Shown: positions 6,264 through 57,156, numbered from the stretch's first letter. The stretch is DNA of 64,000 bases from Candidatus Omnitrophota bacterium (GCA_022709525.1 JAKLIQ010000002.1:984-64983); one strand, 5' to 3'. Made by a program: numbers and translations. Notes: generated from the letters alone by a model not told the origin.

Positions 6264-9200
6264 TTAAGCCGCTGTCTCGATCGACTCCTTCGCTTGGAAT
6301 GCGTTGTTAAATTCCTCGACGGCAACCGACCAGCCGCTCTTGCTATTCCGTTTGAGGAATGAGGACCCGGGCATATCTTCCAGATAGGTTTTCAAAAGTT
6401 CTGGATTTTTGGCGATCGCTTGCTGGGCGCTGCGGCTGAGTATCATATATTTGTAAAGCATATGCTGGACAATAAGCTTGACTACCTGTCTTGCCGCCGG
6501 ATCTGCCAATTTAAAATGATCAAGGTTGGAATTGCAGAGCAAAACCCCCAGCTCGCTAAAACCTATATCCTTGCTGGTGATACCAAACCATAATTCTCGA
6601 CTATCGGCGGTTATCTTGTTTGAAGCAAGCCGGTTCACGTCCTTGCCGGAATAGTTCAGCGGCGTGAAACGGTTTGTGACTTTGTGATAGCCGCGACCCG
6701 GCACATTCTCCTTCTCCTTGCCGTCATAAAAGACCACCAACTGGCGCAATTCCTCCAGCGACTCGATGATCCCCAGGATGTCGCTCGAAGTTCCGGGCGT
6801 GTGGTCCATAAGGATATTAATGGGCACGCCTTTCATTTTTGAGAGGAGTTCCGCGTTAGCCGCTACAAGCTGTTTTACGAGAGCGTTAAGTTTTGCGCGA
6901 TCGTACTGCGTCAGCTCAGCTTCTGCGGTAATTGCAACGGGGGCGGTGGTCAATTCGCCTGCGATGATCGTATTGAGACGGCTGAACTCTGCTGCGGTAT
7001 TGACTAGCCGCGCCTTATCTCCCAATCCGGTTTCAAACGCCGCCCAGGCATCCGGAATACCTAAAATGACCGCGTCGGCATTCGGCAGATTATTCAATAT
7101 TTCAACAAACTCTGCTATCGCGAGATTAAAAAGCGGGGCAAGGTTGCTGAAACCACGCTCCCCGCTCCGCTTTAATTGCGCCAGCACATTTTTTACTTCC
7201 GCGTCTGAAGGGTTCCTGCCAAGCGCCGCCAAAATTTGCGCAGAATCAGAACCCGTCAATAAAGTAAACGAATTGTCAGGACTCACTACTGTGCGAACCT
7301 CGGCCCGCTTAAAAGCCTGATTGAAAGCGCTCTCTCCCGCCAGGGTCTTTGTTGCGTCATTCCGGATCATTTCCAATCCTTCGACCATTTTGACAACAAA
7401 ATCATTCGGAAGCCGCTCTGGATCGGGATAACTCGATCGAGCCGTTTCCAGAAAATTCACTACACGCTCATCCAGAAAAGCGCGGTATTTCAGAAAGAAA
7501 GGAACAATGCCCGGCCTACGCCAATCCGACTCATCAAAAAACCTGTCCCATAGGATCTGCTTGGCTCGAGGGTCTTTTACAGATACCCCCCCATCAAGAT
7601 CTCCGCGCCTGAAAACGGGGATTCCATTCTCCCTTTCGCTGCTGCACCAAAAATTATGAACGAAAGAATCTTCAAAATAGAACCCGAGGATCTCGCCTTC
7701 TCTTATCGATCGGAACGCTTGGAGTAAAAACTCAAGGGAATAAAACGCATAGGATGTCTTTTCCGCCCCCGGTTCTTCCGGAGCTCTCAGAAAAAAATCC
7801 ATTATTGTGAACGCGCTTTTCGGAGGAACCCCGTACCTGTCCTCCAATCCTTCGAACGGTATAAGCTGAAATTCATCCAGAAAGTCGCTATCCCTGTAAT
7901 TGCTTACCGCGATAGGCGAAGTCCAATCCGAAATAAGCAAGGGATAAACATTTTCTGCATCCCGCTGGTCGTCCGCCGCTATATTGGACATTACCAAGTG
8001 GGGAATCTCTTTTTGATTTTTACCGATCATCTCATCCGCAGCGTCCAATTCGCTCTGGGTGGGATAGACTTTTATGGCAACGAGTTTTTCAGGAATTTGA
8101 TCCGAGCCCTGTCTCATTTGCATGGCCAACACGATCAGACTGCTGCCATCATATTTGGTCAGGCGTTGCAGCACTTCATAATACATCGAATCAAACTCGA
8201 CTTTTTTGCCCACTTCCGCCCACCCCGGAGACTTTCCATACGGTTTATATTCCCGGGCATTTCTTGGAATGTTCTGAATTACCTTTTCAAATCGTTCTCG
8301 CCACTTCATCCGCATCTCAGCGCGGACCCGAACGCCTTCCTTTGACTCCAGAACCCCCCTTTCGATAGCTGCTGGTTTTTCGAAAGATTCCAGATCCAAC
8401 CCCGCAACGTTCGGCAAAGTGATCTGGGTAGGGTCGGATATGCCGAGAATTCTGAGCAGATCCGCGACCGTTAAATCCCACAACTCCGGATTTTCTCCCG
8501 TCTTCTCCAAAATATCTCGCAGCAACTTTGCGGTAACTATGGTCTGCTCACGTTTTTCTGAAATCGAAACCGTACGAGCGTTATCCGGAATAATAAGGGC
8601 CTTTTTATAGCCGAAATCCAGCGTCGCAGAAACATACCCCCTATTCCATTCCCCCATTTGAGCCTTCCGGGCTAGATCACTATGCGAAGCGGTCAAAAAT
8701 CCCAAAGGTCTTACGGGGCTGACCGCGACCCGGAGGTCCCGCCCGTATTGAATATTCAAAAGAACATTTCTTTTTTTCACGCCGGGTTGAATATAATTTT
8801 TGAGGATCTCCGGCGCGTCTTCGGCGGACATGCCGCTAAAAAGTTTGTCCCCGAGCCACGACAGCGATTCTTCTTTAAAATACCTCTCCTCCGCCGCACG
8901 CGTTTCAGCGCGGGTTTTCGGGCGATCCGTCCGACGAATGGTGATGCGCCCCTTCGTGTCAATTTCTCCTTCGCCCAACAAATCTTCTGCTGCAAAATCT
9001 CCGCTCCTGATCGTTAATTTTCGGAGACCGTCCCTTTCGGGGCTCGAAACGATCAAGTTGATCCCGTAACCGCTCGTAACATCGCTAATGATCTCTCCCT
9101 GCTTATACTGCTTACTAAAACCGGAAATAATTGCGTCGCTAAAATCCGGCTCTTCGGAAGCGCCGTTCATAAATACATGAAAAACAGATCCCTCGCCGAT

Positions 9201-12200
9201 ACCCCGCTCTTGCAAACGACCTATGGCTGTCGCTATCTGTTGTCTTAGCTCCGCGTCAGAAATATATTCGCCTTTTTTACCCGGGAAGAAGTGAGCTGCT
9301 CCGATCCTTTCCCCGTCTTCTGTTTGGATAAGAACGAACACGCATTGCCCTCCCTGCAAAGCGCCGGATTGAAAAAGCTCTTTTTCAAAAACTCGCATCC
9401 TGTTTTCGCGTACCAAGGTCGGCAGATTTCTTTCAATCGCCTGACCGCTGCGAATATCATACATGGGATTATTTGCATAGCCGTCATCTCGGCGCTTTCC
9501 GGTAACGAGTTCGTATGCCAAGTCTTTGAGGGGCTCGATCCCTGTCGTTTTCTGATACCGAAACGCGGCAAAAATATCGAGCATCATCATTCCGAGAACC
9601 GCAAAAACAGCAACCCACCCCATTCTTGCGATCGCTTCTTTTCCTGATATCCGCAGTTCAGAGCGAAATTCCTGGCGCGAAACTCCGGATTCGGGCTTCG
9701 ACTCTCCGGACTTCAAAAATTGCGACCGCTTGCCTTTTAATTCTGGAAAAATTCTTTCAAGGTAGGGCCACGGATCACCAGGAGGAAAAACATAGAGATC
9801 ATAGTCGACGGAGGTGATCGGGGTGCCCGGAGGATACTCGCTTCGAAGGTCTGCTGGGCTAATACCGCCGCCCAAGCTGTCCGCGTCAGGATCGCCATCA
9901 AGGTCCAAATAAACATTTGCTACGTTCTTTCCTCGCGGCACTAACCAAAAAGTCGGAACATCCCGAGCGCGACCTTCGTTGACAAAACCAATCCCGTAGC
10001 GACCCAGCTTATAAGGCGTTTCGGACAAGAGCCCGCTTACGGTTTCAAGTGGTATCTCTTCCCATAGGCCGTCTTCGGTATTGATAATGATCTTATCGGT
10101 ATCATAAATTCCTGCACCAGGCCCGCCGGGACGGACAAACATGGAACTCGGCTGCCATGTTTTTAATGCTTCGCCAAGCCGAATACGGTCTGGGTCAAAC
10201 TTTGCTCCTGAAAAACCAATCCTTGGTGAAGCGGCCCGAACATTATATTTCACATTTATTTTTAAATAATCAAAACGTCCTTCCTTGTCTTTTTTGGATG
10301 GGCTAATGGTCGCTACAAAGCCATCCGTCTGGATCATGCCGTTGTCGTCAATAAAATCACCGGTCACAACAACGCTTCCCTGAAAACCGCGTCTGAATTT
10401 AAGGTTGTCGATCCTCCCTTTATGGTGATAATTGCCATCGCCATCCCAGTATCCCGGAAACGGAATAAAACTCATGCCCCATTCGACCAAGATCGTCTCG
10501 GTCCTTCCGTCTGGCGTCTTGACGGTCACGGGCATGAGCGTTGCGCGCCAGTAATCTGGCTTGATCGAAATAGATTGGAAATAGTCCATAAGCACTTGGA
10601 AATAAATTTGTACTTCCGAGGCCTCGCCGGCCTTTCCCAAATTCATCATAATGGGAGTACCGTCGGTATCGTCGGCGAGTTTAACAAGAGCGCCATCCTT
10701 ATGATACACTTGGCGTTCTTGAGCCATGCTTGGAGTGGGCAAAGCAACAGCGGCGCCCAGCATGACGCCCGCCAAAAGACTAATTAAATTTTTTCGAGAG
10801 AAAAATCCTCCGCGCGAAATCGGGCTTAGTCTTTCCCCTTGCCTAGCGACGGGCAGGCGCACTTCCGCACGGGATTTTTGATCGGCTTCGGCATTGAGGC
10901 GTATCGCCTCTTCGACGGCGCTTGGAGGTAATTGACCCGGATAGGCGTTGATCATGCCGGAGGAGGTCACTCCAAACACAACCACGCCATTTCCGTCTTC
11001 CCCATATCGTTCTGCATGATCAACAATATCGGGAACTCCTCCATAATAATCGGGAGCATCGGGATCCAGCGAACTTGTGTTATAGCGTGTTACGCTATTT
11101 GTATTTCGATCATAAACAAAAAACGCGTCGCCAAAAAATTCGGCGGTTTCAATCCGGGTTACATTTTCTTCGGCGACCCCATAATCAAACTCCTGCTGGA
11201 AATGGGTCGCATGAACCAATTCATGCAAAATGGTCCGGATAAATATTTCCCATGCTTCCGCCCGATCGCTCATGACCCAATCCATCGCGCCTTGATCAAC
11301 CGTTACGATTTGTCCGCCCTGGACGGCATCCCCGCCTGCTCCGCCCTCATCAGGTCTACCCTCCATCTTTGGACTTATAAAAAAATGATCCTTCCAGTTC
11401 TCGCCAAAAAGTAGGGTCTTTAATTCAGGATTCCTCCCATCGCTCGCCAAGGCCTGAAGCTCTTGCCATGCGGCTTCTATGATTCTCCATTCAGCTTCTG
11501 AGGGTTGACGATATCCCTGCGGCACTTTTACTGGCGATTTAGACCAGCCAACATTGCTTTGGGTTGTCTCACACCCTGCCCCTAAAAATCCTACGGCGGC
11601 TCCTGCCGAGGCTAAACCGACTATTTTCAAAAAGGCGCGACGGGATATTTTCTTGGAGCTAAGACCTGCGGCAATAACAGCGGCAAGACCGGCAGCCACC
11701 AAACCTCCCCGTGACGGCCCTACGCGCTTTTGATCCCGCGCAAGAAAACCCCCAAGTGCGGGAACTGCTTCGTAAAGATTTTCACCAGCCCTAATCTCCG
11801 CTCTGAATGGAAAATCGAACCGATCTAAGCCCTCACGATCTTTCCAACCAAATGCGGCAAAATCAACTTTGACACCACCCGCTTTGGCCTTGAGAAGAAA
11901 CTCATCGCGCGGAAGTTTTTGACCGGGAAAACCATTTGCAAAAGATTTCTGCATATTTTCAACATACAAGTTCTCGTGGATATATAAAACGCTTGCCGGT
12001 TTGTATTGATCTAAAAGATTGGAGAGTAACGCATAAACAGGACTTGAAACGTCTCCGGCATACAAATGATGTAATCCGGTTTCTTCCAATCCTATCATCA
12101 AATGGTTGCTCCCGGTCCTACGCTGACGATCTTCAACGAACTCCTCAAGCGAACCATAACCTAAATATTTAGCAACTCCCACGGTTCGTCGAAGTTGAAC

Positions 12201-14708
12201 TTTTAAAGTTTCTTGGACTGCCAGGTCTGTTTTTTTATCTTTGAAAATCTCTCCTGCGCGCACTTTTTCAGCGGTCAATTTAAGCACCGTTGAGGAAACA
12301 TAACGGACTTGCTGGTTTGCTTCTAGCGCAGGAAGCGCGCCCCAAATATGCTGCGCAGCGCCCTCGACAATAATGAGCGCGGGACCCGGATTAGCCCGAA
12401 GATGAGCGCTTACAGCACTTTCGATTTCAGCCCAACTTGTAATATCCCGTGAAATCGCGTTGGAGGGCTGGTTAGCCAAGGCCTCTTTGTAAGCTTCTTC
12501 GACTACTGGATCTTGCAGATCAAAAAGAGGCATTAAATCACTCAAAAACCCTTCTGCGCCTAATTGGCTTGTCAAATATTCCGCCCTTCTGTCCACGCTT
12601 GTTTTCTCCGAAGATTCATCACGAACCTTGGGCAACTCGGAAACCGGTTTTTCGATTGCTGGTGCAACAATGAGTGGCGCTACAACAGAAATCGCCCCTG
12701 TTGGCGCATAACCGAGGGGTATGCTTCTTGCTCCCGGCTCTAAGGGGCGCTGCGGAGGAATCATTGAAGGTTTGGCTTTGGAAACGTTATCTAAAAGCGC
12801 GGAGACGGTTTGGAGATTTAGTTCCTTTTTCGAAACCAACTCCCGGAGTCCCGTTCCGAATTCCTGGAGCTGCGCCTCGAAACGTTTCCAGATCCCGGCC
12901 AAGGATTCGTCGCGGAAGCGTTCGAGCTCTTTCTGGATCGCGGCGATGATCTCTTCTTTGCTTCTCTTCAACGGCGCTTGACCAAAACGTATTTGCGCGG
13001 GCAAAGCTAGGGCGTCGATATAACGGGTGTACTGCCCCACGTCGGCGATGGTTCCCTTTGCCGCAGCGTTGCGGATCAGTTGATCGCGCCAGGATTTTAG
13101 ATTTCTGTCGAGCCCGGCCAGAGGCAACTCCATCAAGAGTTTTTGCATCGCGGCGCGGGCGAACGCGTCATAAAGCGTCGCATTGGGCGACGGCTTATAC
13201 GAAACATCCCCTTTCATCACGCGCGCATAATTTTCGTAGCCCGTCAATGAATGGATCCGGGGCGTTATCACTAAATGCGAAACGCCGTTGGCCCGGAGGA
13301 TCTTTTTAAGCCCTTCCGTGTGGAAACCTCCGGCGACCATGACCGCGGTCTTCTGTCCCTCCTTGTTCATGAGAGAGGTGAGCCGGTCAAAAAATGCCCG
13401 GTCGCGGGCAAGCGCATGCTCATAAAACTCTAAAGCCGGTTTGACCTTCTCGCGAAAATCCCGATCGCCTAACAGCCCGGCGAAGCTCTCGGGATCCTCC
13501 TGATAGGCCTGGAGCTCCTGATGGGTCAGTTCCAACTTAACGAGATCTTCCAGGATGAAGAGGCGCTCATATTTTTTCGCCAGCTCCCGCTCTTCCGGCT
13601 TTTCTGCCAACGCGGCCATGCTCTCCGGAAGGTATTTCTGCAGTTCATCGAAAAGGCGGCTTCCCTTGATCTCGGAAAGCGTTTCCGTATGCCCGAGCAG
13701 TTTCCGCATCTGCGGGGTTAATTTCGGCCGGAACCCTTTCGATTCGCCGATCCGCACCATGTAAAGCAGGAATTGTCCGGCGCTTAATTTCCCCGTCGAG
13801 AACGCCTGATATTTTCCGTAGAAATTCATTTCCTCTTTGACGCCGAACTGGCGGACATACTTCATTTTGAATTCATTCGCCATCTCGCGGATCATGGGCT
13901 CGAGGGCTTTCTCTTTGCCGGAACGGTCATAGCCGACCGAACTCATAACCTTCGAAAGCTCGGCATAGCGGGACGATTTGGAAGGCCTCAACCCAAGCGC
14001 GTTCAAAGCGAGGAAAAGCTCCAGAACGGAGATGCGCTCGCTGCGGAAACCCTGCCACGCTTCCTGGAAATCGTTCAGCTTCTGCGAATAAACCGATCTG
14101 CGTTCACGATCGAGCTTCTCCTTAAACGATGCGAGACTCTTAAGCAAATCGTCCTTAACCGCCTGGACCTGCAAGTAAGCGCGGTAGTTCCGCTCATAGA
14201 GGTCCCAATTCTCGATACCGTAAAAATTATTTTCTTTTTCGCCGAGGATCGCGGCCATCTCGGGCCCTGTCAACTCAGCCTGTTCCAGATAACCCGTCAT
14301 GACCTTTTGCATGACCTTTGCGTCAGGGAACGCGCGGTAAAGCGTCGGGTCCAGCTTCTCCTTGCCGCCTTCCAAAGCAACGAGACGAACGCCCTGCTCC
14401 TTCTGGAGATATTCGATCAGCCGCTGAATGTTTTCCTGCGCGTCATTGACCGCGTGGGCGTCCTGAATGAGAATGACCGTCTTGTCGCTCGCCGGATCCC
14501 GGAACCTCGCCTGGATCTCGCCGAGAGTGTTCGGTATCGCGATTGCCGCGGTTTGCGACGCGGTCGCCGCAACGGATTGCGCAGCGCCCATATCCCCGCC
14601 GCTGGCAGGGACAGACCACGCGCAGTTCGTTGTCGCGAACACAAACGCGACCACGGCAGCGACTATTCGTCTCCCTTTGTTTTTTTGATACATAGTTTCC
14701 GTGTTCAT
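6264..14708 (-). CDS. Giant secreted or membrane-anchored multidomain protein of about 2815 aa. Paralog of the 8256-aa protein in its N-terminal domain. Contains an HExxH metalloprotease-like motif and internal signal-peptide-like segments.
   Basis: Uninterrupted 8.4 kb ORF. After a short leader, the N-terminus MNTETMYQKNKGRRIVAAVVAFVFATTNCAWSV is a signal peptide or TM anchor. The region around 13050-14600 encodes a domain with ...ILIQDAHAVNDAQENIQRLIEYL...VMVAGGFHTEGLKKILRANGVSHLVITPRI. This is clearly homologous to the N-terminus of the 31421..56191 protein (...VLHVQDAHINEEAQRNIANILRYF...IVTGGFHTPGIEKYLREKDISYIVVAPRI). ILHELVHATHF lies at about 11215-11240. Confidence 0.85.
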   Translation of the reverse strand: MNTETMYQKNKGRRIVAAVVAFVFATTNCAWSVPASGGDMGAAQSVAATASQTAAIAIPNTLGEIQARFRDPASDKTVILIQDAHAVNDAQENIQRLIEYLQKEQGVRLVALEGGKEKLDPTLYRAFPDAKVMQKVMTGYLEQAELTGPEMAAILGEKENNFYGIENWDLYERNYRAYLQVQAVKDDLLKSLASFKEKLDRERRSVYSQKLNDFQEAWQGFRSERISVLELFLALNALGLRPSKSSRYAELSKVMSSVGYDRSGKEKALEPMIREMANEFKMKYVRQFGVKEEMNFYGKYQAFSTGKLSAGQFLLYMVRIGESKGFRPKLTPQMRKLLGHTETLSEIKGSRLFDELQKYLPESMAALAEKPEERELAKKYERLFILEDLVKLELTHQELQAYQEDPESFAGLLGDRDFREKVKPALEFYEHALARDRAFFDRLTSLMNKEGQKTAVMVAGGFHTEGLKKILRANGVSHLVITPRIHSLTGYENYARVMKGDVSYKPSPNATLYDAFARAAMQKLLMELPLAGLDRNLKSWRDQLIRNAAAKGTIADVGQYTRYIDALALPAQIRFGQAPLKRSKEEIIAAIQKELERFRDESLAGIWKRFEAQLQEFGTGLRELVSKKELNLQTVSALLDNVSKAKPSMIPPQRPLEPGARSIPLGYAPTGAISVVAPLIVAPAIEKPVSELPKVRDESSEKTSVDRRAEYLTSQLGAEGFLSDLMPLFDLQDPVVEEAYKEALANQPSNAISRDITSWAEIESAVSAHLRANPGPALIIVEGAAQHIWGALPALEANQQVRYVSSTVLKLTAEKVRAGEIFKDKKTDLAVQETLKVQLRRTVGVAKYLGYGSLEEFVEDRQRRTGSNHLMIGLEETGLHHLYAGDVSSPVYALLSNLLDQYKPASVLYIHENLYVENMQKSFANGFPGQKLPRDEFLLKAKAGGVKVDFAAFGWKDREGLDRFDFPFRAEIRAGENLYEAVPALGGFLARDQKRVGPSRGGLVAAGLAAVIAAGLSSKKISRRAFLKIVGLASAGAAVGFLGAGCETTQSNVGWSKSPVKVPQGYRQPSEAEWRIIEAAWQELQALASDGRNPELKTLLFGENWKDHFFISPKMEGRPDEGGAGGDAVQGGQIVTVDQGAMDWVMSDRAEAWEIFIRTILHELVHATHFQQEFDYGVAEENVTRIETAEFFGDAFFVYDRNTNSVTRYNTSSLDPDAPDYYGGVPDIVDHAERYGEDGNGVVVFGVTSSGMINAYPGQLPPSAVEEAIRLNAEADQKSRAEVRLPVARQGERLSPISRGGFFSRKNLISLLAGVMLGAAVALPTPSMAQERQVYHKDGALVKLADDTDGTPIMMNLGKAGEASEVQIYFQVLMDYFQSISIKPDYWRATLMPVTVKTPDGRTETILVEWGMSFIPFPGYWDGDGNYHHKGRIDNLKFRRGFQGSVVVTGDFIDDNGMIQTDGFVATISPSKKDKEGRFDYLKINVKYNVRAASPRIGFSGAKFDPDRIRLGEALKTWQPSSMFVRPGGPGAGIYDTDKIIINTEDGLWEEIPLETVSGLLSETPYKLGRYGIGFVNEGRARDVPTFWLVPRGKNVANVYLDLDGDPDADSLGGGISPADLRSEYPPGTPITSVDYDLYVFPPGDPWPYLERIFPELKGKRSQFLKSGESKPESGVSRQEFRSELRISGKEAIARMGWVAVFAVLGMMMLDIFAAFRYQKTTGIEPLKDLAYELVTGKRRDDGYANNPMYDIRSGQAIERNLPTLVRENRMRVFEKELFQSGALQGGQCVFVLIQTEDGERIGAAHFFPGKKGEYISDAELRQQIATAIGRLQERGIGEGSVFHVFMNGASEEPDFSDAIISGFSKQYKQGEIISDVTSGYGINLIVSSPERDGLRKLTIRSGDFAAEDLLGEGEIDTKGRITIRRTDRPKTRAETRAAEERYFKEESLSWLGDKLFSGMSAEDAPEILKNYIQPGVKKRNVLLNIQYGRDLRVAVSPVRPLGFLTASHSDLARKAQMGEWNRGYVSATLDFGYKKALIIPDNARTVSISEKREQTIVTAKLLRDILEKTGENPELWDLTVADLLRILGISDPTQITLPNVAGLDLESFEKPAAIERGVLESKEGVRVRAEMRMKWRERFEKVIQNIPRNAREYKPYGKSPGWAEVGKKVEFDSMYYEVLQRLTKYDGSSLIVLAMQMRQGSDQIPEKLVAIKVYPTQSELDAADEMIGKNQKEIPHLVMSNIAADDQRDAENVYPLLISDWTSPIAVSNYRDSDFLDEFQLIPFEGLEDRYGVPPKSAFTIMDFFLRAPEEPGAEKTSYAFYSLEFLLQAFRSIREGEILGFYFEDSFVHNFWCSSERENGIPVFRRGDLDGGVSVKDPRAKQILWDRFFDESDWRRPGIVPFFLKYRAFLDERVVNFLETARSSYPDPERLPNDFVVKMVEGLEMIRNDATKTLAGESAFNQAFKRAEVRTVVSPDNSFTLLTGSDSAQILAALGRNPSDAEVKNVLAQLKRSGERGFSNLAPLFNLAIAEFVEILNNLPNADAVILGIPDAWAAFETGLGDKARLVNTAAEFSRLNTIIAGELTTAPVAITAEAELTQYDRAKLNALVKQLVAANAELLSKMKGVPINILMDHTPGTSSDILGIIESLEELRQLVVFYDGKEKENVPGRGYHKVTNRFTPLNYSGKDVNRLASNKITADSRELWFGITSKDIGFSELGVLLCNSNLDHFKLADPAARQVVKLIVQHMLYKYMILSRSAQQAIAKNPELLKTYLEDMPGSSFLKRNSKSGWSVAVEEFNNAFQAKESIETAA

Positions 14709-14890
14709 AATGTCTTCTTTTTTAAGTCGTAAAATCTTTACACAGCCTCCTTCTCTGCATTCCGCAACCCTTTGCAACAACACTCGTTGCCTCTAGAAAT
14801 ATTTGATTTTTCCTCCAATACAAAAGTAGCATGATAGAGAAGATATTACAAGATATTGAAAAGATTTATATATTATTCAGAGGTTATAAT

Positions 14891-14932
14891 AAGCTATAAT
14901 TAGCTATATTTGCTATATATTGCTATGTTAGC
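14891..14932. promoter_or_regulatory. AT-rich upstream region of the 2815-aa gene, containing four tandem ~10 bp units (aagctataat / tagctatatt / tgctatatat / tgctatgtta)
   Basis: Read directly. The units are phased at the DNA helical repeat, inside a <30% GC stretch (14784-14940) immediately 5' of the giant-paralog start at 14708. Confidence 0.4.
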
Positions 14933-14944
14933 AGAGGGCATAAA

Positions 14945-15231
14945 TTGCAGAATTTCCCGCGACCCTGAAGCGCGCTCCCGCGCCCGAGCGGGCATGGAGA
15001 TTAAGACAGGGCTTGCGATTCCGGCACCGGCGGTTCGTCATTCCTGCGATAACGACCGCCTGCGCTCTCGTCCCGCAGATTCCTCCTCTTGAGGAAACCA
15101 AGCTCTGCGGGACTCCGAGAGCTGCCTTCACGCAAGCCCTGTCTTATCGAGCGAGGGCAAGGGTGCGAGTGAGTCCCGCCTCGCCGGCGGCGGGACGAAC
15201 GGCGAGGAAGGAGCGGCGGGAAATTCTGCAA
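14945..15231. repeat. MITE-like ~287 bp palindromic element, copy 1, with 16 bp perfect terminal inverted repeats (ttgcagaatttcccgc ... gcgggaaattctgcaa)
   Basis: The whole element is a long imperfect hairpin (e.g. agacagggcttgcg ... cgcaagccctgtct). It shares ends and internal blocks (agcgcgctcccg, ggcaccggcggttc, gagtcccgcctcgc.ggcggcgggacgaa) with the second copy at 18709..18994. No ORF inside is credible. Confidence 0.65.
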
Positions 15232-15301
15232 TTCTTCCAAAAATTGAAAATGACGGTTACGTTCTTGCATTCGGAGATGGCTTTGTTTAATATTCATACC
15301 A

Positions 15302-15697
15302 ATGAGTCAAGAAAAGATCCGCCTTCTTCAATTCATGATCTGCAAAGACTTTGAGCCGGGAGAGCAAGACGCCTATCAAGCAGGCATGGTCCGCAGCAAC
15401 CTGCATGTCCCCGCCTACCCCTACCGTTTCGACAACCTTTATGCCGTCACCTGCTGGCGGAAAGATAAAATGTTCCACAAGGAAGTGATCGAATATTCCA
15501 CGGAGGATGGGCGCATTTTCAAAACAGCGCCCATGGATATCGAACCCGTGACCTCAAGCGTTCTTTTCCGGTGGCACAAACATGCCTTTCCGCCGGATTT
15601 TGAGATCAAGGAAGACGGGCTGCTCCATTTGCGGGTGATCCTGGATTGGAAAGTTAATTTTGAATCATACCTTATGATCGAGAAAAGGGCGGGGTAA
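15302..15697 (+). CDS. Hypothetical protein (131 aa)
   Basis: One of only two plus-strand ORFs not antisense to a strong gene. It sits 3 nt before the downstream permease gene, forming an operon. No recognisable motif and a weak RBS. Confidence 0.45.
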   Translation: MSQEKIRLLQFMICKDFEPGEQDAYQAGMVRSNLHVPAYPYRFDNLYAVTCWRKDKMFHKEVIEYSTEDGRIFKTAPMDIEPVTSSVLFRWHKHAFPPDFEIKEDGLLHLRVILDWKVNFESYLMIEKRAG

Positions 15698-15700
15698 CGT

Positions 15701-16939
15701 ATGCATCACGAATGGCTGCCGGCGCTTTGGACCACGCTCCCGTTCCTCGGGCTTCTTGTTTCGATCGCGGTCTTCCCGCTCGCTGCCGCAAAATTCTGGC
15801 ATTCGCTCAAAAACCAGGCTTTCGTGGCGGCATTCTTCGCGTTCCCGGTCATCTACCTCTGCCTGGTCTATAATCCCCATCTTCTTTTTTCGGGGCTTGA
15901 ACACTACCTGTCCTTTGTCATCCTTCTAGGATCCCTTTTTATCGTTTCCGGCGGGATCTGCATTACCGGCGACCTGGTCAGCACGCCTTTGGCGAATACG
16001 CTCATGCTTGCCGGGGGCGCGGTGCTCGCGAACTTTATCGGAACCACCGGCGCCAGCATGGTCTTGATCCGACCGCTTCTTCACGCCAATCATTACCGGA
16101 AACACCATATCCATATTCCGATTTTTTTTATCATGCTGGTAAGCAATATCGGCGGCCTGCTGACGCCGCTCGGCGATCCGCCGCTTTTTCTGGGGTTCCT
16201 GCTCGGCGTGCCGTTCTTCTGGACGCTGAAACTTTATCCATTCTGGCTTTTCGCGGGATGCGTGATCCTTGCTTTATTCTTTTTGATCGATCGCCGGGCA
16301 TTTGACCATGAAACAAAACGCCTGCAGCGCGAGGCGCGCTCCGATGAGCCGGTCCGGATCCGCGGGCTTCAAAATCTCGGGTGCCTTATCGCGATCATTG
16401 CCGCGACCATCTGGGCGCCTCAACCCTGGCGGGAGATCGTGATGGTCCTTGCCGCGCTCATTTCTCTTAAGATCACGCCCAAAAGCGTCCATGAGGCGAA
16501 TGGGTTTAATTTTTATCCGATCCTGGAAGTCGCGATCCTTTTCCTCGGGATCTTCATTACGATGGAACCGGCGCTCGAGATCCTCTATCTGCGCGGGCAG
16601 GAGCTGGGCGTGACGCAACCCTGGCAGTTTTTTTGGGTCACGGGGGCTTTTTCGTCTTTTCTGGATAACGCGCCGACTTACCTGACTTTTATCGCGCTCG
16701 CCCAGGGACTAAAATCAATGGGGCCTCATCTCAAGATCCCCGAGCTCCTCTTGACGGCGATCAGCGTGGGGGCGGTTTTTTTCGGGGCGATGACCTACAT
16801 CGGGAACGCGCCTAATTTCATGGTCCGCTCGATCGCGCAGCACCGCGGCTGGAAGATGCCGAGCTTTTTCGGCTACATGCTATGGTCGGCGGGGATCCTG
16901 ATCCCGCTATTCCTGGTGATAACGTTCGTGTTCTTTTAG
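15701..16939 (+). CDS. Integral membrane permease, ArsB/NhaD (CitMHS) superfamily-like. Putative Na+/H+ antiporter.
   Basis: 412 aa with about 11-12 predicted TM helices throughout (e.g. LPFLGLLVSIAVFPLAAA, FVAAFFAFPVIYLCLV, GALGGVSMF-type hydrophobic segments). The shine-dalgarno-like aagggcgggg lies upstream. Family assignment is from overall topology and composition only. Confidence 0.6.
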   Translation: MHHEWLPALWTTLPFLGLLVSIAVFPLAAAKFWHSLKNQAFVAAFFAFPVIYLCLVYNPHLLFSGLEHYLSFVILLGSLFIVSGGICITGDLVSTPLANTLMLAGGAVLANFIGTTGASMVLIRPLLHANHYRKHHIHIPIFFIMLVSNIGGLLTPLGDPPLFLGFLLGVPFFWTLKLYPFWLFAGCVILALFFLIDRRAFDHETKRLQREARSDEPVRIRGLQNLGCLIAIIAATIWAPQPWREIVMVLAALISLKITPKSVHEANGFNFYPILEVAILFLGIFITMEPALEILYLRGQELGVTQPWQFFWVTGAFSSFLDNAPTYLTFIALAQGLKSMGPHLKIPELLLTAISVGAVFFGAMTYIGNAPNFMVRSIAQHRGWKMPSFFGYMLWSAGILIPLFLVITFVFF

Positions 16940-16955
16940 GGATAAGAGAGAGAAA

Positions 16956-17051
16956 TTACTTTTTCCGGAGAACGACGGTAAACGACGCGATCATCAGGAA
17001 GAGAATAAAACTCCAGCTTACGATAAGAAAGATCCAACCCGAAGATGTCAT
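16956..17051 (-). CDS. Small single-TM protein (31 aa, MTSSGWIFLIVSWSFILFLMIASFTVVLRKK). Looks like a MetS-like accessory subunit of the NSS transporter.
   Basis: Its ATG overlaps the TGA of the upstream transporter gene, in an ATGA arrangement at 17048-17051. One hydrophobic helix followed by a basic tail. The pattern resembles the MetP/MetS pairing of NSS transporters with a downstream micro-protein. Confidence 0.55.
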   Translation of the reverse strand: MTSSGWIFLIVSWSFILFLMIASFTVVLRKK

Positions 17052-18664
17052 TCCGGCACCCTCCGCTGGATGACGTGCGGTTTGCGCCAGGCGATATAGA
17101 CCAAGAAAACCATAAACGCGGCGATCCCGATCAGCATAAATCGGGCAAACCATATGTAAGGATAGTCCGCCGCCGAAACGCCTTTCATGGTCAAGACGCC
17201 CCATCCGTCCTGGATGAACCAGAACACCATAAGAGCCACAAGATACGCCAGCGTGACGTATTTCATGAGCGGAAGCACAAAGCGCGGCAAACGGATATCA
17301 GCACCTGAATTGATCTCTTTCCACGCATTGGCGGCGCCGAATACCCAAATAAAGAGGACCACCTCGAGGATCGCGAAAACCACGAGCCCGAACGTGCCGA
17401 TCCAGAAATCGATCTCATTTAAGAATCCGTGCTTCAGGAAAAAGATCACGGGAAGCGTGAAAAAGAACGTCATCGTTCCCACGATCCATGCGGCGACCCT
17501 GCGAGAGGTCTTAAATTCCTCCTGCAAGAAGGCCATGATGGGCTGAGCCATAGCAACTGACGAAGTAACGCCGGCAAGAAAGAGAAGAAAGAACCAGATC
17601 GTTCCGAACACCTGCCCCAGGAACATCTTCTGGAAAATGATGGGCATCGCAAAAAAACCGAGATCGAAAGCTCCTCCGGCCGCGATCGTCTTTGTTTGAG
17701 CAAGGCCGAAAAAGGCCACCGTGACCGGTATCGCGATCGATCCGCCCAGGATCACCTCGCAGAATTCATTGGTCGTGCTTGTCGCGACACCTGAAAGCAC
17801 CACATCATCCTTGGGTTTCAAGTAGCTTGCGTAGGTCTGGATCGCGCCGAATCCGACGCTTAAGGTAAAAAAGATCTGGCCGGTCGCGGCAAGCCAGACC
17901 TTGCTTTCCTTAAGCATGCTGAAATCGGGATTCCAGATAAAACCAAAACCGTTCGCGATGTTGTTCTCCGGCAAAGCCGGATCGGGGGTCCCGAGAAAGA
18001 GAACGCGGATCACAAGAATGGCTCCGAAGACAAAAATAAGCGGCATGGCGGTCTTGGCAAGACGCTCGATCCCTTTGGAAACCCCGCGCGAGATGATCCA
18101 CATCATGCAGAAATGCGTGATACAGAAAAAAAGGAACGCCGTCATGATATTGGGAAAATAATTATTGGAGATCTTTCCCTGATAGGCGGCGAGGAAATCG
18201 GCCATACCCCGGAAGTCCAGGATGCCGGCGTATTTTCCGGTCAAAGAAAAAACGCTATAAGCCAGCGTCCAGGAAACGATGTAGTTGTAATAGATCACAA
18301 GCGCGAAAGGGATCGTCAGGCCGATCGCGCCGACATATTTCGCGAGCGGGTGCTTCCAGAGGTAATGGAACATCCCCGGCGTCGTCCCATGGCCGTATTT
18401 GCCGCCAAAGCGGCCGATCCCCCATTCGATCCACATGAGCGGGATGCCGAGCAGGATGAACGCGATAAAATAAGGGATCATGAACGCCCCGCCCCCATTC
18501 CCGGCGCACTGGACTGGAAAACGGAGAAAATTCCCGAGACCGACGGCGTTGGCAGCCATCGCAAGGATAAGGCCAAGACGGGTCCCCCACTGTTCGCGGG
18601 ATTTTGGCTGGGAAGGCGGCTGATTCATGGAGAGAAGGTTAGCGAAAAAAAAGGCGAGGTTCAA
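17048..18664 (-). CDS. Sodium-dependent transporter, neurotransmitter:sodium symporter (NSS/SNF) family
   Basis: 538 aa. N-terminal signature REQWGTRLGLILAMAANAVGLGNFLRFP plus about 12 TM segments. The exact start is uncertain (MNL.. at 18664 or MNQPP at 18628). Confidence 0.9.
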   Translation of the reverse strand: MNLAFFFANLLSMNQPPSQPKSREQWGTRLGLILAMAANAVGLGNFLRFPVQCAGNGGGAFMIPYFIAFILLGIPLMWIEWGIGRFGGKYGHGTTPGMFHYLWKHPLAKYVGAIGLTIPFALVIYYNYIVSWTLAYSVFSLTGKYAGILDFRGMADFLAAYQGKISNNYFPNIMTAFLFFCITHFCMMWIISRGVSKGIERLAKTAMPLIFVFGAILVIRVLFLGTPDPALPENNIANGFGFIWNPDFSMLKESKVWLAATGQIFFTLSVGFGAIQTYASYLKPKDDVVLSGVATSTTNEFCEVILGGSIAIPVTVAFFGLAQTKTIAAGGAFDLGFFAMPIIFQKMFLGQVFGTIWFFLLFLAGVTSSVAMAQPIMAFLQEEFKTSRRVAAWIVGTMTFFFTLPVIFFLKHGFLNEIDFWIGTFGLVVFAILEVVLFIWVFGAANAWKEINSGADIRLPRFVLPLMKYVTLAYLVALMVFWFIQDGWGVLTMKGVSAADYPYIWFARFMLIGIAAFMVFLVYIAWRKPHVIQRRVPE

Positions 18665-18708
18665 TCATTAAAATCGAATCGATAATTCCCATATTCCCAG
18701 AGATGGGG

Positions 18709-18994
18709 TTGCAGAATTTCCAAGCGATCCGGGAGCGCGCTCCCGAGGCGAAGCGGGCACGGTGCTCTTGAGGTCTCGATTCGGCACCGGCGGTTCTCGA
18801 ATCCAGCGATTCTCACCCGCCTGCGGCCTCGTTCCGCAAATTTTCCGAACGAAAATACGGAAAAACCATGCTTTGCGAAACTCCGGCAGCTGCCTCCGTC
18901 GAGACCTCAAGAGCGAGCGTAGACGAGGGCGCGAAAGAGTCCCGCCTCGCTGGCGGCGGGACGAATGGCGCTGTAGGATGCTTGGAAATTCTGC
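18709..18994. repeat. MITE-like ~286 bp palindromic element, copy 2 (TIR ttgcagaatttccaagc ... gcttggaaattctgc)
   Basis: About 75-80% identical to copy 1 at 14945..15231, in conserved blocks. It has an internal inverted repeat (ctcttgaggtctcga ... tcgagacctcaagag). Confidence 0.65.
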
Positions 18995-19061
18995 GGAATT
19001 TCCAATACGAAACGCGGGAATTGCCAACAAAAATCGTATGGTTTACCGCGAGAGGAGCGGC

Positions 19062-19274
19062 TTAGCGTATTTTGCGGGCCTGGTATTTATTTTTGATATT
19101 GGATTCAAAAAAGCGGCCGTAAGAAGGGGCCGTGAGGAATTCCTGGTAAACCGTTTCGGGGACGTTCTCATATTGGTATATGGAACCGACGATGAATTCG
19201 ACCTGGAGCATGTTGCGTTTATGTTCGTACCCGATCCACTCAATCTCACGAGATAAAACCATATTATTAATCAT
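19062..19274 (-). CDS. KTSC domain-containing protein (70 aa)
   Basis: MINNMVLSREIEWIGYEHKRNMLQVEFIVGSIYQYENVPETVYQEFLTAPSYGRFFESNIKNKYQARKI matches the KTSC fold consensus (...V.Y.....L.VEF..G..Y.Y..VP..VY..L..A.S.G.YF...I...Y). A GGGGGA RBS lies 5 nt upstream of the ATG at 19274. The 167-aa version in the ORF track is an over-extension. Confidence 0.75.
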   Translation of the reverse strand: MINNMVLSREIEWIGYEHKRNMLQVEFIVGSIYQYENVPETVYQEFLTAPSYGRFFESNIKNKYQARKIR

Positions 19275-19482
19275 GTTGTCCCCCTTGGTTACTATGATTA
19301 ACGGACAAAATGATGAAATCTTGAATTTTTTGGAACATTTTTTGTGAAAATCCTGTCCAAGACACACGGATCCCGCGTCATCACACGAGCTAAAAGCATG
19401 TGAGCTTTTTACCAAGATCCCTCGAAGAACTTTTTTCCGCTTCATACCCCAGACGCGGGAAAAAGCGCCCTCATCAGACAGA

Positions 19483-56560: not shown

Positions 56561-57080
56561 AAATTGACTAGCAATTCCCTCTTTGTTGCAGGAAAAAACA
56601 TGACTGGAATTTCCAAGCGATTTTTGAAAATTTCCGCCAGTATTTTTCGAGGACAGGCGCACCCCATTTTGAGCAGTAGTTTCTAACCCGCCCCTTGCTT
56701 CAACGAAAACCGTGTTTCGCGAACGCTTGCCATGCCCCACCGAGGCATGGCGGCACTCGAGCGTCGGCCCTCGCTAAAGAGGAAACCGTGGCACTCGGGC
56801 TTCCTTACGTCGCTTAAACACACTTTCCGTCTTCGCTCTCCTGAACAAAAGGCGGAGGGTTGAGCCCAAGGCGCGTTCGAACGACGAGCGGGCAGGGTCC
56901 TGCTTTAGCAGGGAGCGAGGAGTGAGACCGAACGAGGGAATCCACGCCGGGGATTCCCGAAGTGTTGACGAGGGCTCGAGCCCGAAGCCTTTTGAATGGC
57001 CGTCACAAAGAAGGATTGGCTCTTAAGGACCTAGGAATTAACGGATGCAGAGTCGCAGAAGCGGATGAGGCGCTCAAAAT

Positions 57081-57156
57081 TGGTGGACCTGAGGAGAGTC
57101 GAACTCCTGGCCTCTGCAATGCGAATGCAGCGCTCTACCAGCTGAGCTACAGGCCC
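57081..57156 (-). tRNA. tRNA-Ala (anticodon CGC)
   Basis: Reverse complement: GGGCCTGTAGCTCAGCTGGTAGAGCGCTGCATTCGCATTGCAGAGGCCAGGAGTTCGACTCTCCTCAGGTCCACCA. Cloverleaf with a 7 bp acceptor stem including G3:U70, D-arm GCTC/GAGC, anticodon stem CTGCA/TGCAG with loop TTCGCAT, T-arm AGGAG/CTCCT with loop TTCGACT, and an encoded CCA. Confidence 0.85.

What the first reader, a model, noticed from the sequence alone, without database searches (positions are those of the whole stretch)
14945..18994. Two diverged copies of a ~287 bp MITE-like hairpin element bracket a 3.4 kb transporter segment
Copies at 14945-15231 and 18709-18994 share 16-17 bp terminal inverted repeats (ttgcagaatttcc...) and internal conserved blocks, and each folds into a long imperfect hairpin. 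They flank 15302-18664 in the same orientation. That segment holds a hypothetical gene, an NhaD-like permease, and the NSS transporter with its micro-ORF. This could be a composite mobile cassette. Alternatively the elements are insulators or terminators, or structured RNAs sitting at giant-gene boundaries; copy 1 directly follows the giant paralog's upstream region.
Basis: seen in the sequence. Interest (0 to 1): 0.65.

Follow-up and report, generated by a model that had tools for sequence, protein, structure and literature searches.

The report
Widespread structured non-coding insertion element
The two ~290-bp "hairpins" are real, but they are separate insertions of a non-coding element whose branched fold, not its ends, is conserved from Omnitrophota to Saccharibacteria, so they look like an undescribed structured-RNA-like mobile element, not a transposon carrying the transporter genes.

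Summary
Copies at 14943-15233 and 18709-18996 lie in the same orientation, are about 80% identical, and close with perfect 18-bp and 15-bp terminal stems.

They are not simple hairpins. Each is a branched fold, and 36 of 72 base pairs change on both sides across just four relatives.

Related elements occur in other Omnitrophota, in Saccharibacteria, in one Gammaproteobacteria MAG and in unclassified MAGs. In these, the terminal stem sequence differs, while the core is kept. The core has tandem-GA loops, a GGSCAYGG bulge, and a hairpin whose loop covaries with the bulge (a 3-bp pseudoknot, paired in 18 of 18). No Rfam family matches.

A covariance model found two more short members in the window, at about 56702-56831 (-) and 56857-56982 (+).

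Six sister Omnitrophota contigs keep KTSC-NSS-microORF-giant gene but lack copy 2. They also lack the block copy 1 + 131-aa gene + CitMHS_2. The NSS gene is therefore ancestral, and the 3.4-kb "composite cassette" is not supported.

The best reading is a low-copy family of structured RNA-like elements that is gained and lost. Its function and its means of spread are unknown.

The parts
14930..15250 (+). Long-form element, copy 1, taken to the full extent of homology with copies 2 and 3. The terminal stem P1 pairs 14943-14960 with 15216-15233.
14986..14998 (+). Conserved 5' side of the core internal loop, GAGC + bulge GGGCAUGGA. Bulge bases 14991-14993 (GGC) are proposed to pair with P5 loop bases 15183-15185 (GCC).
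15002..15146 (+). P3 arm. A perfect 16-bp stem pairs 15002-15017 with 15131-15146; its sequence is entirely different in copy 2 but is still perfectly paired there. The stem encloses a three-way-junction domain of about 113 nt with conserved blocks, including CGGCACCGGCGGUUC and the bulge AACCAAGC.
15149..15154 (+). Conserved 3' side of the core internal loop, GAGCGA.
15171..15199 (+). P5 module of copy 1: GA-GUCCCGCC-UCGCCGGC-GGCGGGAC-GAA.
18695..19010 (+). Long-form element, copy 2. P1 pairs 18711-18725 with 18980-18994, P3 pairs 18764-18779 with 18899-18914, and the P5 module is at 18937-18965. It is an insertion in the KTSC-NSS spacer.
56857..56982 (+). Short-form family member S1. The core is at 56878-56969 and the P5 stem is GGGAAUCC/GGAUUCCC.
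56702..56831 (-). Short-form family member S2, head-to-head with S1. The core is at 56718-56804 and the P5 stem is GCCAUGCC/GGCAUGGC. This is a weaker match, at 34 bits.
14930..16940 (.). Block absent from the sister genomes: copy 1 + the 131-aa gene (15302-15697) + the CitMHS_2 permease (15701-16939). It lies between the NSS micro-ORF and the ancestral upstream region of the giant gene.
15265..15293 (+). Sigma-70-like promoter candidate of the 131-aa/CitMHS_2 operon, TTGCAT-N17-TAATAT, 8 nt before the ATG. It lies downstream of copy 1, so copy 1 is probably outside that transcript. This is an inference.
   Evidence: Read. L140 has the same geometry (TTGAAA-N17-TAGTAT). The site falls below the threshold of the scan.
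16956..18628 (-). The NSS/SNF transporter (17048-18628) and its overlapping 31-aa micro-ORF (16956-17051). Both are ancestral at this locus.
6264..14708 (-). Giant gene 1, about 2814 aa. Its AT-rich upstream region (14709-14925, with TAGCAAT-type repeats) is homologous to that of the sisters right up to the outer end of copy 1.

Best explanation
The two elements are paralogous members of an undescribed family of non-coding, highly structured elements that are gained and lost. Selection acts on the fold of one strand, most likely as an RNA read from the + strand of the window.

The fold is as follows. A long, nearly perfect terminal stem (P1) closes a three-way junction. One arm runs P2, then a tandem G.A motif with a 2-bp GC clamp, then a 9-nt bulge GGSCAYGGN, then P3. 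The other arm is a hairpin (P5) flanked by GA and GAA, and its loop pairs with the bulge. In the two flagged copies, P3 also carries a second junction domain of about 113 nt.

The copies entered this Omnitrophota lineage as separate insertions. Copy 2 went into the KTSC-NSS spacer. Copy 1 sits at the edge of a block that carries the 131-aa/CitMHS_2 operon.

Shown here: the conserved fold, the pseudoknot covariation, the presence/absence polymorphism, and conservation above that of the flanks in orthologous loci. Inferred: that the element is transcribed, that P1 serves to insulate or process the core out of whatever transcript it lies in, that the GA-rich core binds a conserved partner, and that spread needs a factor supplied in trans. 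No such factor was identified.
For: Structure:
- Four long forms give 72 pairs that are 94% paired. 36 pairs change on both sides, against 17.6 +/- 2.7 in shuffles (0 of 500 reach the observed value). Controls with the partner slid by 1-3 columns pair only about 40%.
- In 18 core sequences, with the P3 arm cut to 6+6 nt, 94.9% of cells pair.
- The 3-bp pseudoknot pairs in 18 of 18. Its pairs are G-C 10 / C-G 8; G-U 13 / G-C 5; and C-G 18. The rule also holds in the four members found later with other P5 stems.
- The G-U pairs of the pseudoknot and the G/A-rich conserved loops fit the + strand only. Short forms fold 3-21 kcal/mol better on the + strand.

Termini and coding:
- The terminal stems are 9-27 bp, and their sequence differs between subfamilies.
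- Indels of 5 and 7 nt between copies 1 and 2 rule out a shared reading frame.

Selection and turnover:
- In orthologous loci the element is 95-96% identical while the flanks are 60-78% identical.
- Six sister contigs show an empty site.
- Copy 3 is nearly identical to copy 1 inside but differs at the ends, with an insertion in each P1 arm (G on the left, C on the right) that keeps them paired.

Other:
- No Rfam family matches, even at E <= 10.
- No protein family recurs next to the members.
Against: - There are no expression data, and no convincing promoter was found upstream of either copy.
- S1 and S2 lie head-to-head with only about 25 nt between them, which leaves little room for two promoters.
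- The nested helices are almost purely Watson-Crick. G-U pairs are about as rare as A-C mismatches (4 v 5 in the core alignment; 4 v 6 in the long forms; 3.9% G-U on either strand). That is unusual for RNA-level selection, and only the pseudoknot and the loop composition indicate a strand.
- Most neighbouring genes are on the opposite strand: 15 of 18 on the left and 11 of 18 on the right. Read-through transcripts would therefore usually carry the complement of the element.
- The pseudoknot rests on a single two-state covarying pair.
- Members were first found by demanding an exact P5 sequence, so the sample is biased.
Confidence: 0.5

Rival explanations
1. The element works as folded single-stranded DNA. 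It would be a non-autonomous element in the manner of REPINs, IS200/IS605-derived palindromic elements or attC sites. A recombinase or HUH nuclease encoded elsewhere would recognise its hairpins on one DNA strand during replication.
For: - The helices are nearly all Watson-Crick, with no excess of G-U over A-C.
- Neither a conserved TIR nor a target-site duplication is present.
- Orientation is biased relative to the neighbouring genes, and so possibly relative to replication.
- Contigs often break inside the element, and one contig shows a junction recombined between copies 1 and 3.
- Two lineages carry adjacent head-to-head pairs.
Against: - A loop-bulge tertiary pairing that uses G-T wobble, and conserved purine-rich junctions, are not known requirements of such systems.
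- Orthologous copies are held at 95-96% identity while their flanks drift.
- Copy number appears low. I did not see the dozens to hundreds of copies typical of REPs.
- No Y1/HUH or integrase gene lies within about 10 kb of the copies.
- No R''/R' attC boxes are present, judged by reading the sequence.
Confidence: 0.2
2. The elements are ordinary host ncRNA genes. They would be paralogues of an unrecognised housekeeping or regulatory RNA that are inherited vertically, and the presence/absence differences would reflect losses in the sister lineages.
For: - Purifying selection acts in orthologous loci.
- The core is conserved across phyla.
- L148 carries a member after tRNA-Ala in the same place and orientation as S1.
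Against: - Six sister lineages have a compact 69-124-nt spacer that is homologous to the flank of copy 2. Loss would have had to be exact, and repeated or ancestral.
- Copies 1 and 3 are nearly identical at unlinked loci.
- Copy number and positions vary within one phylum.
Confidence: 0.13
3. The elements are cis-acting mRNA or DNA signals at gene boundaries. Candidates are a leader or riboswitch for the transporters, a terminator or insulator, or a giant-gene control element.
For: - Copy 1, S1 and S2 lie upstream of the two giant genes. Copy 2 lies upstream of NSS and copy 3 upstream of hisI-trpE, all on the minus strand.
- Several short forms start 9-12 nt after the stop codon of a gene on the opposite strand.
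Against: - Sister genomes run the same genes without the elements.
- The candidate promoters of the 131-aa operon and of the pilin gene in L066, L022 and L007 lie between the element and the gene.
- The neighbours have no common function.
- No U-tract follows P1 on either strand, and the terminator scan finds no site at the elements.
Confidence: 0.07
4. The elements are a classical MITE pair forming a composite transposon that moves the 3.4-kb transporter segment.
For: - The two copies are in direct orientation and bracket 15302-18664.
- The 131-aa/CitMHS_2 pair does sit at different loci in different Omnitrophota.
Against: - NSS and its micro-ORF are in the ancestral position in six sister contigs.
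- The novel DNA is two separate pieces.
- The TIR sequence is not conserved in the family, whereas the interior is.
- No target-site duplication is supported. The right flank of copy 2 scores 21 against the sister spacers, with 17 +/- 3.3 expected by chance.
- No transposase gene lies nearby.
Confidence: 0.03

Closest known systems
Bacterial MITE-like intergenic repeats such as ERIC and Correia elements (my own knowledge of these families)
   Same: - Size of about 100-300 bp and non-coding.
- Terminal inverted repeats.
- The whole element folds back on itself.
- Located in intergenic regions, with presence/absence polymorphism between relatives.
- Size variants produced by internal insertions.
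   Different: - In MITEs the terminal repeats are the conserved, transposase-recognised part, and a target-site duplication flanks them.
- Here the termini differ between subfamilies, no duplication is seen, and the conserved part is an internal branched fold with a pseudoknot.
- That fold is shared across phyla.
REPINs (REP doublets mobilised by RAYT transposases; my own knowledge)
   Same: - G+C-rich hairpin-forming intergenic repeats.
- No TIR/TSD signature.
- Compensatory maintenance of the stems.
   Different: - REPINs are symmetric doublets of a 20-35-nt REP carrying a conserved GTAG-type tetranucleotide.
- They are species-specific and usually present in tens to hundreds of copies next to a single RAYT gene.
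- This element is asymmetric, branched, low-copy as far as I could see, and conserved across phyla. I could not test for a RAYT gene.
HEARO RNA / IscB omega-RNA (Rfam RF02033; my own knowledge), a structured ncRNA that travels with mobile DNA and often occurs as orphan copies
   Same: - About 200-300 nt, with many stems and pseudoknots.
- Several copies per genome and a patchy distribution.
- Behaves like a mobile element.
   Different: - There is no sequence or structure match to any Rfam model, HEARO included, at E <= 10.
- No IscB, TnpB or other recurrent ORF lies beside any of about 20 members.
- A long closing stem joins the two ends here, which omega-RNAs lack.
Integron attC sites (my own knowledge)
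   Same: - Structure is conserved rather than sequence.
- The two ends pair with each other.
- The central part is variable and sometimes branched.
- The site often lies just after a stop codon, with the folded strand antisense to the gene.
   Different: - No RYYYAAC / GTTRRRY boxes are present.
- P1 has no extrahelical bases.
- The neighbours are housekeeping genes rather than cassette arrays, and no integrase is nearby.
Orphan large structured bacterial ncRNAs of unknown function, such as raiA, ROOL and GOLLD (my own knowledge; all are in Rfam)
   Same: - A conserved multi-helix fold supported by covariation.
- Conserved junction nucleotides.
- Function unknown.
   Different: - No match to any of these families.
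- Much shorter in its minimal form, at about 120 nt.
- A long, perfect closing stem, and clear insertion polymorphism.

Membership tests
Classical MITE (non-autonomous DDE-transposon derivative) | Terminal inverted repeats whose sequence is conserved across the family, because the transposase recognises them. | tested here: not met
   The terminal stems of 22 members are 9-27 bp and share no common sequence beyond a frequent GGAA near the start. The interior is what is conserved.
Classical MITE (non-autonomous DDE-transposon derivative) | A short target-site duplication flanking each copy. | tested here: inconclusive
   No direct repeat flanks copies 1-3. The apparent duplication of the spacer around copy 2 is no better than chance (score 21 v 17 +/- 3.3). 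The five Saccharibacteria copies are all flanked by GA on both sides, but this GA can equally continue the helix as a tandem G.A motif.
Classical MITE (non-autonomous DDE-transposon derivative) | Presence/absence polymorphism at otherwise syntenic sites. | tested here: met
   Copy 2 is absent from six sister contigs, which have a 69-124-nt spacer instead.
Composite transposon | The whole bracketed segment is absent, or moves as a unit, in related genomes. | tested here: not met
   NSS and the micro-ORF are ancestral at this locus. Only copy 2, and separately copy 1 + the 131-aa gene + CitMHS_2, are new.
Known RNA family (Rfam 15, 4227 models) | A covariance-model match at or near the gathering score. 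| tested here: not met
   Only a tRNA is found in the window. Nothing is found over the elements at E <= 10, either in the window or on a short member.
Conserved structured RNA (generic) | Helices supported by compensatory changes beyond what shuffled and slid controls give. | tested here: met
   94-95% of cells pair. 36 of 72 pairs in the long forms and 13 of 23 in the core change on both sides. No shuffle out of 500 reaches the observed values, and slid controls pair 35-49%.
Conserved structured RNA (generic) | Strand asymmetry: G-U pairs tolerated on the transcribed strand. | tested here: inconclusive
   The nested helices show G-U about as often as A-C (4 v 5 and 4 v 6). The pseudoknot has 13 G-U and no A-C. 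The loops are purine-rich on the + strand.
Conserved structured RNA (generic) | Evidence of transcription: a promoter, a terminator or transcript data. | not testable with these tools
   The consensus scan finds nothing convincing, and no expression data were available.
Riboswitch / cis-regulatory leader | Sits in the 5' UTR, on the same strand, of functionally related genes and is kept with them in relatives. | tested here: not met
   The neighbours are unrelated in function. 15 of 18 left neighbours are on the opposite strand. Orthologous genes in the sisters lack the element.
Intrinsic terminator | A G+C-rich stem followed by a U-tract. | tested here: not met
   No T-run follows P1 on either strand. 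The scan reports no site at the elements.
REP/REPIN-RAYT system | A symmetric REP doublet, high copy number, and a cognate RAYT gene in the genome. | not tested
   The element is asymmetric. Genome-wide copy number and the presence of a RAYT gene could not be assessed, because only about 64 kb plus fragments of the genome were available.
Integron attC | R''/R' boxes (RYYYAAC...GTTRRRY), extrahelical bases, a cassette-array context and an IntI gene. | tested here: not met
   The boxes are absent from the ends read. P1 is perfectly paired. The neighbours are housekeeping genes and no integrase was called.

The most novel reading that the evidence does not exclude
This is a previously undescribed class of compact structured RNA: a P1-closed three-way junction with tandem-GA motifs and a loop-bulge pseudoknot, with an optional second junction domain. 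It behaves as a mobile genetic element without an adjacent protein gene, and it is shared by Omnitrophota, Saccharibacteria (CPR) and at least one gammaproteobacterium. It would be either a new ribozyme or guide-like RNA that exploits a trans-acting enzyme, or a new host-beneficial ncRNA that spreads horizontally.
Probability: 0.35. Interest if true: 0.8.

Novelty: new variant of a known kind. Interest (0 to 1): 0.62.

Why it matters
If the fold is an RNA, this is a new cross-phylum ncRNA class. It is found in lineages (Omnitrophota, CPR) where almost no non-coding biology has been characterised. It also has the unusual property of appearing and disappearing like a mobile element while being conserved better than neighbouring genes in orthologous loci.

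The family gives a concrete target for experiment: a minimal form of about 120 nt and a long form of about 290 nt. Both can be tested for self-cleavage, for processing at P1, and for protein partners.

There are practical points too. These elements break metagenome contigs, and at least one public 166-kb contig shows a junction recombined between two copies. Their G+C-rich sequence also attracts spurious ORF calls. Recognising the family would therefore improve the assembly and annotation of these genomes.

For this window specifically, the result removes the idea that the transporter genes are carried on a composite transposon.

Tried and rejected
- Rfam was run on the whole window at gathering scores, on 14700-19300 at E <= 10, on 20 related loci, and on a short member at E <= 10. 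Only tRNAs and chance-level hits came back.
- nhmmer with the two-copy profile found no more copies in the window. Only the covariance model did.
- The first genome-collection scan used too strict a hairpin pattern and found nothing.
- The relaxed pattern also pulled in two unrelated repeat families that merely share the module GA-GUCCCGCC...GGCGGGAC-GAA.
- The relaxed-hairpin pattern scan of viral contigs, and BLAST of copy 1 against the plasmid and phage collections, gave no match.
- Clustering the ORFs within 4 kb of 22 members found no shared protein family.
- A protein search with the spurious ORF called over the element found only itself.
- Full-text searches for the conserved sequence strings and for Omnitrophota ncRNA returned only irrelevant papers.
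- A duplication of 35-60 nt of the target spacer around copy 2 looked plausible by eye but failed a shuffle test.
- I checked by eye for a hammerhead core (CUGANGA...GAA), a K-turn, a T-box, attC boxes and a retron msr/msd layout. None fits. These comparisons rest on my memory of the consensus sequences and are not formal tests.
- The promoter/terminator scan found nothing at the elements.

Full report
**1. The observation**

Both copies are present as described. Copy 1 (14943-15233) ends in a perfect 18-bp inverted repeat and copy 2 (18709-18996) in a perfect 15-bp one. They lie in the same orientation and share long conserved blocks, with 82% mean column identity.

The shared 12-mer of the repeat occurs five times in the window against 0.8 expected. 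A 29-nt conserved hairpin occurs only in the two copies. Both fold much better than shuffled sequence, with z = -8.3 and -5.9. They are islands of 61-63% G+C in flanks of 28-48% G+C.

They are a 131-aa hypothetical gene, a CitMHS_2 permease that NCBI names a sodium:proton antiporter, and an SNF/NSS transporter followed by a 31-aa micro-ORF. The organism is a Candidatus Omnitrophota MAG from anaerobic digesters.

**2. The elements are not simple hairpins**

One inner 16-bp stem is completely different in sequence in the two copies, yet it is perfectly paired in each (15002-17/15131-46 v 18764-79/18899-914). That was the first sign of selection on structure.

Scans of public metagenome and genome collections for the conserved hairpin brought in relatives. 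Two of them, L091 and L085, align with the window copies over their whole length. On these four sequences the consensus fold has 72 pairs and 94% of cells are paired. 36 pairs change on both sides, against 17.6 +/- 2.7 in shuffles (0 of 500 reach the observed value). Sliding the partners by 1-3 columns drops pairing to about 40%.

The fold is branched. It has a terminal stem P1, an irregular stem leading to a three-way junction, a long P3 arm that carries a second junction domain with conserved bulges, and a hairpin P5.

**3. A wider family defined by its interior**

Shorter relatives of 96-225 nt have the same core but only a short hairpin in place of the large P3 arm. They come from other Omnitrophota (L095, L134), from one Saccharibacteria MAG with at least four copies (L111, L116 with two, L132), from an unclassified MAG with three copies (L103, L120, L122), from another unclassified MAG (L138), and more weakly from a Gammaproteobacteria chromosome (L125).

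The core has four parts:
- P2.
- A tandem G.A motif with a 2-bp G-C clamp (GAGC...GCGA).
- A 9-nt bulge, GGSCAYGGN.
- The P5 hairpin flanked by GA and GAA, with loop NCGSYGG.

I aligned 18 core sequences. The P3 arm was cut to its outer 6+6 nt and nothing was added, so every column holds natural bases. In this alignment 94.9% of cells are paired.

Three bases of the bulge can pair with three bases of the P5 loop, and they do so in 18 of 18 sequences. The middle pair is G-C in 10 and C-G in 8. The outer pair is G-U in 13 and G-C in 5. Both states of the middle pair occur within one subfamily (L023 v L015), so there was more than one change.

The terminal stem is always long (9-27 bp) and nearly perfect, but its sequence differs between subfamilies. 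This is the reverse of a transposase-defined MITE family.

No Rfam 15 family matches, even at E <= 10.

**4. More copies in the window**

A covariance model built from the core alignment recovered the known members and found two more in the window. S1 has its core at 56878-56969 (+) and scores 51.9 bits. S2 has its core at 56718-56804 (-) and scores 34.2 bits.

They lie head-to-head between the 8256-aa giant gene and a tRNA-Ala gene. Their P5 stems are different sequences (GGGAAUCC/GGAUUCCC and GCCAUGCC/GGCAUGGC), and both obey the pseudoknot rule. So do the second copies found in L134 and L116. The invariance of P5 in the first sample was therefore an artefact of how I searched.

A third long copy, almost identical to copy 1 inside but with a variant terminal stem, lies next to a his/trp gene cluster of the same species (L047). 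Its P1 differs by an insertion in each arm, G on the left and C on the right, which keeps the arms complementary.

**5. Synteny: the bracketed segment is not a unit**

Six sister Omnitrophota contigs (NSS 80-88% identical) all show the same order. TAL-PGI, amidase and KTSC come first. A spacer of 69-124 nt separates KTSC from NSS. The micro-ORF follows NSS. About 330-450 nt further on comes a giant gene.

Copy 2 is absent from all six. The left flank of copy 2 is significantly homologous to the sister spacer (score 50 against 18.6 +/- 3.7), so copy 2 is an insertion of about 330-360 nt into that spacer.

The AT-rich upstream region of giant gene 1 is homologous to the sisters' right up to the outer end of copy 1. 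On the other side, the CitMHS_2 stop codon lies about 15 nt from the micro-ORF. The second novelty is therefore a block of about 2.0 kb, made of copy 1 + the 131-aa gene + CitMHS_2, with an element at only one end.

In another relative (L140) the 131-aa/CitMHS_2 pair sits at a different locus and has no element upstream.

NSS is ancestral in its place, so the 3.4-kb composite-cassette idea fails. I could not establish a target-site duplication.

**6. Is the element functional or merely selfish?**

In orthologous loci the element is 95-96% identical while the flanking DNA is 60-78% identical, and one of those flanks is coding (L066/L022). In the second pair (L048/L111) the intergenic flank is 59.5% identical and the coding flank about 90%. 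This argues for purifying selection in place, or for frequent conversion between copies.

L148, the closest sister at the tRNA-Ala locus, has a member in the position and orientation of S1. A more distant sister, L150, has none. Contigs repeatedly end inside the elements (L004, L005, L148).

One 166-kb public contig (L003) joins the left flank of copy 3 to the right part of copy 1, with the switch inside the element. This is either real recombination between copies or an assembly chimera.

**7. Which strand, and is it RNA or DNA?**

The pseudoknot's G-U pairs and the purine-rich conserved loops point to the + strand. Short forms fold 3-21 kcal/mol better on that strand.

The nested helices are almost purely Watson-Crick, however. 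G-U pairs are as rare as A-C mismatches (4 v 5 and 4 v 6; 3.9% G-U on either strand). The helices therefore say nothing about strand, and a fold of single-stranded DNA remains possible.

Most neighbouring genes lie on the opposite strand: 15 of 18 on the left and 11 of 18 on the right. Several short forms begin 9-12 nt after the stop codon of such a gene.

Copy 1 lies between two divergent promoter regions. One is the ancestral giant-gene upstream region. The other is a candidate promoter, TTGCAT-N17-TAATAT, that sits 8 nt before the ATG of the 131-aa gene, with the same geometry in L140. In L066, L022 and L007 a near-consensus promoter for the pilin gene (TTGCAA-N17-TATAAT) lies between the element and the gene.

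These elements are thus unlikely to be leaders of their neighbours. No convincing promoter or terminator of their own was found.

**8. Verdict**

It is partly wrong: they are neither a composite cassette nor a classical MITE, and they are not tied to giant genes.

The best-supported reading is a family of structured RNA-like elements that is absent from Rfam and, as far as I could find, undescribed. It is low-copy and is gained and lost. Its defining feature is a conserved branched fold with a loop-bulge pairing.

The function and the mechanism of spread are unknown. A form recognised as single-stranded DNA is the main rival. No expression data were available, and the sample of relatives is biased by the pattern used to find them.

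Noticed in passing
window 56702-56982: Two short members of the same family, S2 on the minus strand and S1 on the plus strand. They lie head-to-head about 25 nt apart, between the 8256-aa giant gene (31421-56191) and tRNA-Ala (57084-57156). The same head-to-head pairing occurs in the Omnitrophota contig L134/L093.
   Followed up: partly
L003 9236-9545 (Ga0116241, 166-kb contig) v window 14935-15245 and L047 2248-2533: This public contig joins the his/trp flank of copy 3 to the interior and right flank of copy 1, with the switch inside the element. It is either a real rearrangement by recombination between copies or an assembly chimera at a 290-bp repeat.
   Followed up: partly
L008-L090 and L094-L139 (many loci; for example L009 11759, L096 457-484, L100 567-595): Two other multi-copy repeat families share the module GA-GUCCCGCC-loop-GGCGGGAC-GAA. 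One has the form GUCAUUSY...GAA-RSAAUC and occurs in Omnitrophota, Ignavibacteriota, Bacteroidota, Planctomycetota and Patescibacteria. The other is a hairpin of about 75 nt, CUAACGUUCAGGCUGAGCAGCC...CCUCAAGCCGGUGGUUAG, with at least 9 copies in one Binatia MAG. The representatives I scanned had no Rfam match.
   Followed up: no
window 16956-17051 (-): A 31-aa hydrophobic micro-ORF whose ATG overlaps the NSS stop codon (ATGA). It is conserved in position in most sister Omnitrophota contigs examined and looks like a real small membrane-protein gene coupled to the transporter.
   Followed up: partly
window 14709-14925 (-): The AT-rich upstream region of giant gene 1 carries 4-5 tandem copies of a motif of about 10 nt (TAGCAAT / TAGCTAT type). 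The region is conserved upstream of the much longer giant genes (4597-6431 aa) in the sister genomes, so it is a candidate regulatory array for giant-gene expression.
   Followed up: no
window 6264-14783 v L144-L147: The giant gene after NSS is about 2810-2840 aa here but 4597-6431 aa (and running off the locus) in the sisters. The gene differs greatly in length between close relatives.
   Followed up: no
window 15302-16939; L140 8001-9642: The 131-aa hypothetical gene and the CitMHS_2 permease form a conserved pair that occupies different loci in different Omnitrophota. The 131-aa protein has 127 members in its 90% identity cluster and no Pfam domain. The candidate promoter sits 8 nt before the ATG, which suggests a leaderless transcript.
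   Followed up: partly
L044 1183-1266, L077 4526-4606, L122 3489-3584: Minimal relatives made only of a terminal stem plus the P5 module (L044, L077), or of a stem, a small hairpin and P5 (L122). In L044 and L077 the stem is UGCAGGAA...UUCCUGCA, close to the window's P1. The P2-P3 arm therefore looks like an optional module.
   Followed up: no
L001/L003 20777-20983 v L002 20681-21037: The same DNA between miaA and argS is called as a 118-aa DUF559/MTES_1575 gene in the NCBI record and as a 68-aa ORF on the other strand in the ENA and JGI records. The annotation is inconsistent and was not examined.
   Followed up: no
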